From assembly GCA_964016885.1 (NCBI GenBank), contig OZ024755.1, forward strand, positions 6,386,001 to 6,450,000: a DNA stretch of 64,000 nt, written 5' to 3'. The notes below the pieces were generated by a model. That model was not told the origin of the DNA. It saw only the letters and a program-made list of their open reading frames with translations, and did not search any database. The number at the start of each line of letters is the position of its first letter. Positions within the stretch are counted from its first letter, which is position 1. Below, in pieces: positions 6,902 to 50,757 of the stretch. This DNA comes from Eledone cirrhosa. Lineage: Eukaryota. Made by a program: the position numbers and the translations under genes.

Positions 6902-7330
6902 GAGAGATGACCCCTTAGGCGGGATAGATAACCCCTTAGCCTTTGTCAAGGCAGAATTCTAGGAGAAGGAAAACTCTGATATAACACCTGCAACCCTGAT
7001 GGTATCCAATGAAGTTGACTTGTTCTTTTTGGATAAATATCATCTTGGTTAAGAGAGTGGGACTGGCTTTGTGCAGTGCCTTTGCTCACTATAAAAGCTT
7101 CACGGCACAGGCATTGCTTTATATCTGGGATCTCTCTGCCCTTGTCGTCACATGGTACCATGGGCCCAGCGCTATGTGTCAATAATTGTCACAAGTGTAG
7201 TGTTTGTACCAGAGTTTTCAAGTCGCTGGCTGGACTAAAAAGTCACACTCGTTCAGCGCATCGGTAGGGGTTCTCCTACATGGATATAAAGTAGTGGCCG
7301 TACACGAAAACGAGTTGGCAGCCACCAGGT
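6902..7330 (+). mobile_element. Internally deleted (bipartite) RTE-type LINE derivative
   Basis: RTE-like 5' UTR motif ctaggagaaggaaaactctga (6959-6979) joined to a C-terminal C2H2 finger CSVCTRVFKSLAGLKSHTRSAH* ending 7267. Confidence 0.6.
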
Positions 7331-7451
7331 GTGCGTATATATGTGTAGGTATATACTCAAATACGTGCAAAAATATGCTAAAAGGTACATTTTAGTAGCC
7401 ATTTGTGTAAGTGTATAGTATACAAACTGAAACAAGTGTACACACACACGT

Positions 7452-11210: not shown

Positions 11211-11385
11211 GGGTTCAATCAGGGGTAACCACAGTAAGTAAGGTACTCAATACAAAGCAGAGTATATATATATATATGTATAGAAAAGGCTTCCACATGA
11301 CCAGAACTGTTTCATTCGGGAGAAATCATCAGGGCTTCCTGAGGATTTCTCCCGAACGAAACAGTACTAGTCCTGTAGAAGCCTT

Positions 11386-11390
<5 letters not shown>
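11208..11390. mobile_element. Fold-back element family H2 with divergently oriented hammerheads
   Basis: Tail cccgggtt..accacagtaagtaaggtactcaatac shared with 51440; inverted arms 11281-11332 / 11338-11390; TA flanks. Confidence 0.8.
11331..11385 (+). ncRNA. Type I hammerhead ribozyme motif
   Basis: Stem I agggcttc/gaagcctt; core CTGAGGA 11339-11345; stem II ttc-tccc-gaa with closing mismatch; GAAA 11358-11361; stem III acag/ctgt; predicted GUA cleavage after 11377. Confidence 0.8.
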
Positions 11391-11431
<41 letters not shown>

Positions 11432-37633: not shown

Positions 37634-37661
<28 letters not shown>

Positions 37662-37665
<4 letters not shown>

Positions 37666-38091
37666 GTAGGAGGTGAGTTTTATTGTAGTACAATAAAGCA
37701 ATGCAGATATCGGATAAGTAGCACTCTACAGTTTGTAGGACTGGAGTATAAATAATATAAGGTCAAAAGATGGTTAAAAGAGTTCATGTATTTCATGCGC
37801 ATTTCAAAAACAAATATCATCATGAGATGACATTTGGGTTTTCGTCAGATAAAATAGGGAGACACGATATGAAGGTTAAAAAGCACTTGTGAATAGTGCA
37901 GTTTTAAATTAACATATCATGATATGTTGATTTAAAACTGCACTATTCACAAGTGTTTTTTAACCTTCATATCAGGTCTCCCTATTTTATCTGACGAAAA
38001 CGCAAATGTCATCTCATGATGACATTTGTTTTTGAAATGCGCATAATAAAATACATGGAACTCTTTTAACCATCTTTTGATCTTATATTAT
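37662..38091. mobile_element. Fold-back element family H5: tail plus ~340-bp spacerless palindrome with hammerheads
   Basis: Arms 37752-37919 / 37920-38091, centre ca|tg; TA tracts on both sides. Confidence 0.85.
37983..38053 (+). ncRNA. Type I hammerhead ribozyme with palindromic stem III (Penelope-like type)
   Basis: Stem I tattttat/ataaaata; CTGACGA 37991-37997; stem II caaatgtcatc-tcat-gatgacatttg; GAAA 38034-38037; stem III ATGCGCAT; predicted AUA cleavage after 38045. Confidence 0.85.
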
Positions 38092-38322
38092 ATATATGTA
38101 TGTATCCGACGTGCTTCTGCACAGTCTCCATAATGTAAGATTTCAGGCAAGTGTAGTATAAGTAGCAAGTATACAGACCATCTCTGTGGTATTCGTTCCA
38201 GCTCACTGCTCTCTGACTTCAAATCGTACCGAAGTCAACTTTAACTTTCGTCCTTTGGAATACCAGTCCAGTATCTGGTTCAGAATTTCCTCTGAATCAC
38301 TTTCTCATTACCTTTCTACCAT

Positions 38323-50603: not shown

Positions 50604-50757
50604 TATAGTCACTTATATATTATAGAATACTGTTGGCTTCTTGCTACAATACTTTCTATACCTTTCATTTATATATATATATATATGTATATATGAAAGG
50701 TATAGAAAGTATTGTAGCAAGAAGCCAACAGTATTCCAGAATATATAAGTGACTATA
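50604..50757. repeat. Inverted repeat (~65-bp arms) centred on (TA)n
   Basis: gaatactgttggcttcttgctacaatactttctatacctttcat and its reverse complement flank a TA tract. Confidence 0.9.

What the first reader, a model, noticed from the sequence alone, without database searches (positions are those of the whole stretch)
37662..38091. Complete hammerhead inside a 340-bp spacerless palindrome (family H5)
All core nucleotides are present on plus, with an 8-bp stem I, a long stem II (11 contiguous bp plus) and a loopless palindromic stem III ATGCGCAT. Palindromic stem III is the known feature of PLE-type hammerheads that cleave as dimers; the long stem II is atypical for minimal forms. The mirror copy on minus (37790-37856) has lost the cleavage site and stem I junction. 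Arm mismatches indicate a real, aged structure.
Basis: partly seen in the sequence, partly recalled or inferred. Interest (0 to 1): 0.75.

Follow-up and report, generated by a model that had tools for sequence, protein, structure and literature searches.

The report
Twin-primed Penelope leader palindrome with hammerhead
This mirror-image stretch is one of more than 1,700 similar by-products of a Penelope-like jumping gene, made of two back-to-back copies of the element's ribozyme-bearing end; the ribozyme is of a known type, and the joints suggest that both cut DNA ends were likely extended on the same, probably capped, RNA from two fixed start points.

Summary
In detail: a type I hammerhead (37983-38053, +) lies in a 342-bp spacerless palindrome, and its mirror copy has decayed. 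The locus is two head-to-head copies of the pseudo-LTR/5' leader of a Hydra-type Penelope-like element (PLE), inserted in (TA)n. The parent has intact ~810-aa ORFs elsewhere in the genome. Ribozyme, inverted arrangement and one-sided tail are all published PLE features.

What the family adds is a genomic read-out of insertion:
- 1,734 loci join two arms at the same 5' point (+1).
- 92 of 96 scored pairs have one short (+175) and one long (+258) arm.
- Arms nearly always share a haplotype.
- An extra G often precedes +1.

Best reading: both nicked target strands prime reverse transcription at two fixed sites on one capped, uncleaved sense RNA, run off its 5' end and join. Simple fold-back fits poorly. 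Cleavage and transcription are untested, and copies starting at the cut site are rare. The mirror copy's loss is ordinary decay, not design. The scan has reported twin-primed PLE palindromes on other DNA before. Verdict: new member of a known kind, moderate interest.

The parts
37922..38091 (+). Short arm: PLE pseudo-LTR/5' leader from +1 to the short 3' end (about +170 to +175)
   Evidence: 90% identical to the same part of full-length copy L070; 56 of 101 sampled copies end here
37664..37917 (-). Long arm: same leader from +1 to the long 3' end (+258)
   Evidence: 90% identical over 258 nt to the leader of L070, which reads on into the ORF; 42 of 101 sampled copies end here
37664..37746 (-). 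Tail (~83 nt) present on one arm only, between the two fixed 3' ends (inferred RT start sites)
   Evidence: the tail equals the stretch between two RT start sites in PAc (PMC11167929)
37918..37921 (.). Head-to-head junction of four bases not templated by the element; puts a G before +1 on both arms (inferred cap copy plus one added base)
   Evidence: the same junction occurs at 2 of the first 50 loci listed
37983..38053 (+). Type I hammerhead with intact core, long stem II and palindromic stem III; predicted cut after 38045
37790..37856 (-). Decayed mirror hammerhead (3-nt deletion and substitution at the cut site/stem I)
37634..37663 (.). (TA)n target tract, left
   Evidence: sequence
38092..38108 (.). 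TA-rich target tract, right
   Evidence: sequence

Best explanation
The palindrome is two head-to-head copies of the ribozyme-bearing leader of a Hydra-type Penelope-like retrotransposon inserted in (TA)n, likely built at this site when both nicked target strands primed reverse transcription on one probably capped, uncleaved sense RNA. Shown: the parent element; the fixed 5' point (+1); the two fixed 3' ends (+175, +258); one of each end per palindrome; shared haplotype between arms; junction microhomologies; G excess before +1. Inferred steps: (1) Pol II starts at +1 in the pLTR, 61 nt upstream of the hammerhead and ~310 nt upstream of the ORF. (2) An RT-endonuclease dimer nicks both strands of a TA tract. 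(3) One 3' end primes at +175 and the other at +258. (4) When the leader copies of these sites are used, both cDNAs run off the 5' end after 175 and 258 nt, often copying the cap as C. (5) The two cDNA 3' ends join by short palindromic annealing or end-joining, and each templates the other's second strand. The hammerhead is a passenger kept by selection in the parent, predicted to cleave only as a dimer or with protein help. At this locus it is probably inert.
For: [quoted passage not shown] The leader reads on into the ORF. 5' point: 28 of 101 copies sampled without regard to their 5' end start at -3..+4, against 28 spread over +5..+125 and 43 running further upstream. 1,734 loci join two arms at +1, while only 126 join within about 30 nt around the longer stem III palindrome. 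No RNA structure is predicted upstream of +1 (MFE 0). Base before +1 among 1,997 exact anchors: G 346, A/T 467, C 1,184, of which 741 continue upstream. In loci not chosen on that base, unexplained bases are G 10, T 7, A 3, C 18. Pairing: 92 of 96 scored pairs are long+short, against about half expected from 56:42; 18 of 19 in the unbiased subset. Same template: 2.2 versus 8.2 differences at 18 polymorphic sites (0 of 2,000 shuffles as low), with 8 rare variants shared by both arms. When neither arm reaches +1 their 5' ends correlate (rho 0.74, n = 10). In vitro precedent: PAc nicks and extends both strands, starts RT at two internal sites and uses uncleaved RNA (PMC11167929). Penelope's promoter and start site lie in the pLTR (PMC2377424).
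Against: No RNA data, so +1 as a capped start is inferred. Many G's have other possible sources: among all fetched +1 anchors, 18 are templated by the partner arm and 8 are short tandem re-copies, against 28 unexplained, and single-base junctions are ambiguous with the templated C. The cap-G signature is recalled knowledge; two searches found no paper to cite. L094, L095 and perhaps L127 have arms of different haplotype, so two RNAs are sometimes used. Two RNAs from one source locus, or arm-to-arm gene conversion, would also give matching arms. The 39:13 excess of short arms reaching further 5' is partly selection: it is 6:6 in the unbiased subset. Several full-length copies carry upstream pLTRs that begin well upstream of +1, which needs read-through or template jumps.
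Confidence: 0.68

Rival explanations
1. Self-priming (fold-back): one cDNA, or an antisense RNA, folds back at its end and is copied, giving the second arm (the model of Arkhipova et al. 2013).
For: Proposed in print for head-to-head PLE palindromes (PMC3846280, passages). Explains matching haplotypes and correlated 5' ends. The window's junction is a perfect palindrome.
Against: A copy-back arm cannot extend further 5' than its template, nor gain the tail. Yet the short arm reaches more than 4 nt further 5' in 39 of 92 pairs and the long arm in 13 (6 and 6 in the unbiased subset). The commonest junction has no loop (21 of the first 50 loci). Some pairs have different haplotypes. It gives no reason for a G before +1.
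Confidence: 0.12
2. Twin priming as in the best explanation, but each subunit of the dimer carries its own RNA, perhaps held together by the palindromic stem III.
For: Stem III forms a -10.5 kcal/mol 8-bp duplex and the dimer is the MFE fold. 2-3 of 32 pairs have discordant haplotypes.
Against: 18 of 32 pairs show no difference at 18 polymorphic sites although several subfamilies coexist, rare variants are shared, and truncated 5' ends correlate. Few loci active per cell could still mimic this.
Confidence: 0.12
3. The palindrome is a non-autonomous element (MITE- or retrozyme-like) that is copied as a unit from master palindromes, with the hammerhead releasing it.
For: High copy number with a common centre; animal retrozymes are PLE-derived (bioRxiv 10.64898/2026.07.22.740005, abstract, introduction and part of methods).
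Against: Junctions differ within one haplotype. Arms span all subfamily haplotypes. Arm lengths vary continuously. No tandem array at this locus. Copies keep sequence on both sides of the cut site, and only about 0.4% start there. The whole-palindrome RNA buries the ribozyme.
Confidence: 0.05
4. +1 is not a transcription start but a joining hot spot set by the short palindrome around it.
For: The 4-6-nt overlap is the commonest junction (21 of the first 50), and junctions near the hammerhead are microhomology-driven.
Against: The longer GC-rich stem III palindrome yields only part of 126 loci against 1,734. Single arms start at +1 whatever the partner does, including next to (TA)n. G excess before +1.
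Confidence: 0.03

Closest known systems
Hydra-clade EN+ Penelope-like elements (Craig et al. 2021, PMC8557442; read: passages, section 11, supplement part 2 and search hits), e.g. Penelope-13_HM
   Same: Single ORF with RT then C-terminal GIY-YIG; DKT; CxCX5C linker; no CCHH; CxxC and CxH; (TA)n targets; hammerhead near the 3' end; inverted 5'-truncated copy at the 5' end with a hammerhead on both strands (Penelope-13_HM); tail at one end only.
   Different: RWT in place of RWK; element longer than the usual <3 kb (ORF plus about 1.3 kb of 3' UTR); tail about 83 nt rather than 30-40; stem II 15 pairs rather than 3-7; a fixed 5' point and strict long+short pairing are not described in the parts read.
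PLE hammerheads that work as dimers (Cervera and de la Pena 2014, PMC4209133, passages; review PMC6765202, passages; Lunse et al. 2017 not held, seen only as cited)
   Same: Type I, in the pLTR, palindromic helix III, enlarged helix II, dimer predicted.
   Different: First stem II pair A-U (242 of 255 copies) or G-U (13) rather than the conserved G10.1-C11.1; no unpaired base between 9 and 10.1 in the register used here; helix II about twice the 7-8 bp reported.
PAc Poseidon element in vitro (Frangieh et al. 2024, PMC11167929; read: main text parts 1-2 of 4)
   Same: Both target strands nicked and extended; two internal RT start sites bounding the tail; AT-rich target; uncleaved RNA as template.
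   Different: Other clade; that work does not, in the parts read, link one start site to each strand (it saw no strand difference) nor explain head-to-head products.
Inverted-pLTR units of Adineta vaga Penelope (Arkhipova et al. 2013, PMC3846280, passages)
   Same: Head-to-head inverted pLTRs, palindromes at the junction, optional tail on one arm, microhomology.
   Different: Explained there by self-priming on an antisense template; the copies here fit two primers on a sense RNA better.
L1 twin priming and retroviral strong-stop DNA (recalled, not read)
   Same: Second primer from the opposite target strand; short cDNA that runs off the RNA 5' end.
   Different: L1 twin priming inverts without duplicating; here the first 175 nt are copied twice.

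Membership tests
Type I hammerhead ribozyme | Core CUGANGA / GAAA / NUH around three stems, stem I open | tested here: met
   core columns at least 94% conserved in 296 copies, N7 the only variable core base
Type I hammerhead ribozyme | G10.1-C11.1 pair | tested here: not met
   A-U in 242 and G-U in 13 of 255 copies; purine-pyrimidine polarity is kept
Type I hammerhead ribozyme | Structure kept across variants | tested here: inconclusive
   All 9 common variants are pair-preserving, loop or N7 (simple null P = 4e-4), but there is no two-sided change and shuffles are not exceeded; copies are related
Type I hammerhead ribozyme | Rfam hammerhead model match | tested here: not met
   none among 23 hits at E<=10
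Type I hammerhead ribozyme | Self-cleavage | not testable with these tools
   Indirect only: about 62 copies start at the cut site versus about 23 at one control position (10 of 30 x 186; 7 of 30 x 99), a weak excess
Dimer-type PLE hammerhead | Short palindromic helix III; located in a pLTR | tested here: met
EN+ PLE, Hydra clade | Single ORF, RT then C-terminal GIY-YIG | tested here: met
   GIY-YIG match is weak (E 0.0034, below cut-off; none for L070); motifs align
EN+ PLE, Hydra clade | DKT motif and CxCX5C linker | tested here: met
   each in 14 of 15 long ORFs
EN+ PLE, Hydra clade | No CCHH; CxxC and CxH near the C-terminus | tested here: met
   L070 ORF
EN+ PLE, Hydra clade | RWK motif | tested here: inconclusive
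   RWT in the same column where 6 of 10 aligned homologs have RWK
EN+ PLE, Hydra clade | (TA)n insertion preference; inverted 5' copy; one-sided tail | tested here: met
EN+ PLE, Hydra clade | Placement in an RT phylogeny with reference Hydra elements | not tested
   Reference proteins were seen only as supplement text; motifs agree by eye
Naiad PLE | N-terminal endonuclease, no canonical hammerhead | tested here: not met
   Endonuclease is C-terminal and a hammerhead is present
Non-LTR retrozyme | Tandem units each with a hammerhead, no coding parent sequence | tested here: not met
   Single inverted pair; unit is contiguous with a coding PLE elsewhere

The most novel reading that the evidence does not exclude
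These mini-palindromes are integrated 'strong-stop' products that expose the PLE insertion reaction: an asymmetric dimer assigns one fixed RT start site to each target strand, copies one capped sense RNA twice up to its cap, and joins the two cDNAs. That would explain head-to-head pLTRs and the one-sided tail in PLEs generally and replace the antisense self-priming model.
Probability: 0.5. Interest if true: 0.68.

Novelty: new member of a known kind. Interest (0 to 1): 0.42.

Why it matters
How PLEs make their inverted repeats and one-sided tails is still open in the papers read (PMC3846280, PMC8557442, PMC11167929). This family gives over 1,700 natural reaction products with a fixed 5' point and a near-absolute long+short rule. 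That turns the question into direct tests: cap mapping at +1, and two-template or one-nick TPRT with an intact ORF. The hammerhead itself is a modest variant (very long stem II, A-U first pair) and the copies suggest cleaved RNA is rarely the template. Such palindromes could also be mis-annotated as MITEs or miRNA hairpins (Rfam lists only sub-threshold miRNA-like matches).

Tried and rejected
RNA evidence: no RNA holder listed, so no reads were laid. Rfam: no hammerhead among the 150 listed of 275 window hits or all 23 local hits. A Naiad assignment was first considered and dropped after reading PMC8557442. An apparent two-sided compensatory change in stem II was a private mutation of the window copy. 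A hot spot of 5' ends at the cut site: 1 of 101 unbiased copies, about 2.7-fold over one control position with overlapping sampling error, and partly microhomology; not accepted as evidence of cleavage. Independent choice of 3' end per arm, my first model, was rejected by 92 of 96 long+short pairs. An RNA-structure block at +1 was rejected. No ORF fragment of the parent lies in the window. Pfam does not detect the RT. Literature searches for a capped start, twin priming or cap-G in PLEs returned only PMC8557442, PMC3846280 and unrelated papers; subscription papers and Lunse et al. 2017 (not held) were not seen and may bear on novelty. A cephalopod repeat paper (PMC13282606, passages) has no mention of hammerheads or palindromes; the host species was not established.

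Full report
1. Observation. It folds at z = -3.66. Two copies fold by MFE into the classic dimer with intermolecular stem III. The palindrome is centred at 37919/37920 without spacer, and the mirror ribozyme has a 3-nt deletion and a substitution at the cut site. The minus arm is 83 nt longer than the plus arm and both outer ends meet TA tracts. Rfam does not recognise the ribozyme.

2. Parent. The window lies in a 3.0-Gb genome where the arm has at least 556 candidates and a 24-nt anchor occurs 14,831 times. Three long copies extend upstream into a GIY-YIG-like domain, one of them also into RT motifs, and all three carry an inverted copy at their 5' side. A 148-aa RT piece has 36,239 candidates (150 scored). 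15 of 16 fetched loci hold ORFs of 775-908 aa; the 16th was scanned on the wrong strand. These show DKT, YRDD, CxCX5C, no CCHH, CxxC and CxH, and RWT for RWK, matching the Hydra clade definition (PMC8557442 section 11). No tree was built. In full-length copies the same unit lies upstream of the ORF and reads on into it, with the first in-frame ATG at +310. So the arms are the pLTR, which is also the mRNA leader. No coding fragment lies in the window.

3. Fixed ends. Of the first 101 anchors on the first contig, taken without regard to their 5' end, 56 end at about +175, 42 at about +258 and 3 read through. 28 start at -3..+4, 28 start between +5 and +125, 2 at -20..-4 and 43 further upstream. 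1,734 loci join two arms at +1; 2 of the first 50 listed have the window's exact junction. Palindromic microhomology alone does not explain this, since only 126 junctions fall around the longer stem III palindrome. Nor does structure, since the upstream 100 nt have no predicted fold.

4. The base before +1. Among 1,997 exact anchors it is G in 346, A/T in 467 and C in 1,184, of which 741 continue into the templated upstream sequence. In an AT-rich setting G is in excess. One of 30 G-preceded loci continued upstream, through a short duplication. The evidence is mixed: across all fetched +1 anchors 18 G's are templated by the partner arm, 8 are tandem re-copies and 28 are unexplained; in loci not selected on this base the unexplained bases are G 10, T 7, A 3, C 18. 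An extra G as the mark of cap copying is recalled knowledge, and searches found no paper to cite. [quoted passage not shown] I put a capped start at about 70%.

5. Pairing rule. 92 of 96 scored head-to-head pairs (98 found, 2 unscored, one locus counted twice; sample enriched for +1 starts) have one short and one long arm, as do 18 of 19 in the unbiased subset. Independent choice would give about half. Arms share haplotype (2.2 versus 8.2 differences at 18 polymorphic sites; 18 of 32 pairs identical there; 8 rare variants shared), with 2-3 exceptions. The short arm reaches further 5' in 39 pairs and the long arm in 13 (6 and 6 unbiased), which a single fold-back cannot give in both directions. 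Truncated 5' ends correlate between arms (n = 10, rho 0.74). PAc nicks and extends both strands and starts at two internal sites that bound the tail. Together this supports two primers on one sense RNA, against the self-priming model in print. Two RNAs from one locus or gene conversion remain open.

6. The ribozyme. In 296 copies the 9 common variants are all at N7, in loop II or pair-preserving, which suggests selection in the parent. There is no two-sided change and the shuffle control is not exceeded. Stem II is much longer than in the published Hydra table and opens with A-U. Nearly all insertions span the cut site. About 62 start there against about 23 at one control site, a weak hint of occasional cleavage. 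Both cores are intact in 21 of 32 pairs, so the dead mirror copy is decay in an older-than-average insertion. Read-through RNA would be one -260 kcal/mol hairpin.

7. Novelty. The ribozyme type, its place in the pLTR, the inverted copy and the one-sided tail are published. Searches found no paper stating twin priming from two fixed sites on a capped RNA for PLEs; subscription papers and Lunse et al. 2017 were not seen. Earlier notes of this scan reached twin priming on other DNA; they are unchecked and not counted as support. The cap-like 5' point did not appear in the notes shown. Verdict: new member of a known kind, interest 0.42.

Noticed in passing
window 11277-11391: A second small head-to-head palindrome in (TA)n with partial hammerhead cores on both strands, from a different family.
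   Followed up: partly
L033:2902-3546: A 645-nt spacerless palindrome of another family with a hammerhead-like core and an AT-only palindromic stem III, directly beside this family's insertion; the same family is in L071, L075 and L081.
   Followed up: no
L075 (oriented 7003-7440): A +1/+1 palindrome lies about 330 nt downstream of a full-length copy, and one arm shares a rare variant with it.
   Followed up: no
L169/L170, L178, L172: A palindrome centred exactly on the predicted cut site, and pairs in which the long arm starts at the cut site while the short arm reaches +1 or beyond.
   Followed up: partly
L003, L129, L133, L134, L138, L272: Short tandem re-copies of the first 8 nt at +1, like telomerase-type template realignment at the RNA 5' end.
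   Followed up: partly
L070, L073, L077, L084 3' UTR: Variable numbers of ~111-nt and ~220-nt tandem repeats in the 3' UTR of full-length copies.
   Followed up: no
L070 ORF residues ~600-665: An Asn/Thr/Pro-rich insert between RT and the linker that is absent from most homologs, recalling the N-rich inserts described in PMC3846280.
   Followed up: no
L033:117-1205 and L078:502-1890 (oriented): Fragments of other RT-bearing elements close to family copies.
   Followed up: no
window 50633-50728: Near-perfect 36-bp inverted repeat around a TA tract.
   Followed up: no
window 37949-37956 (+28..+35 of the short arm): 6 of 8 match to the downstream promoter element quoted for Penelope in PMC2377424, at the expected distance from +1; weak.
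   Followed up: no
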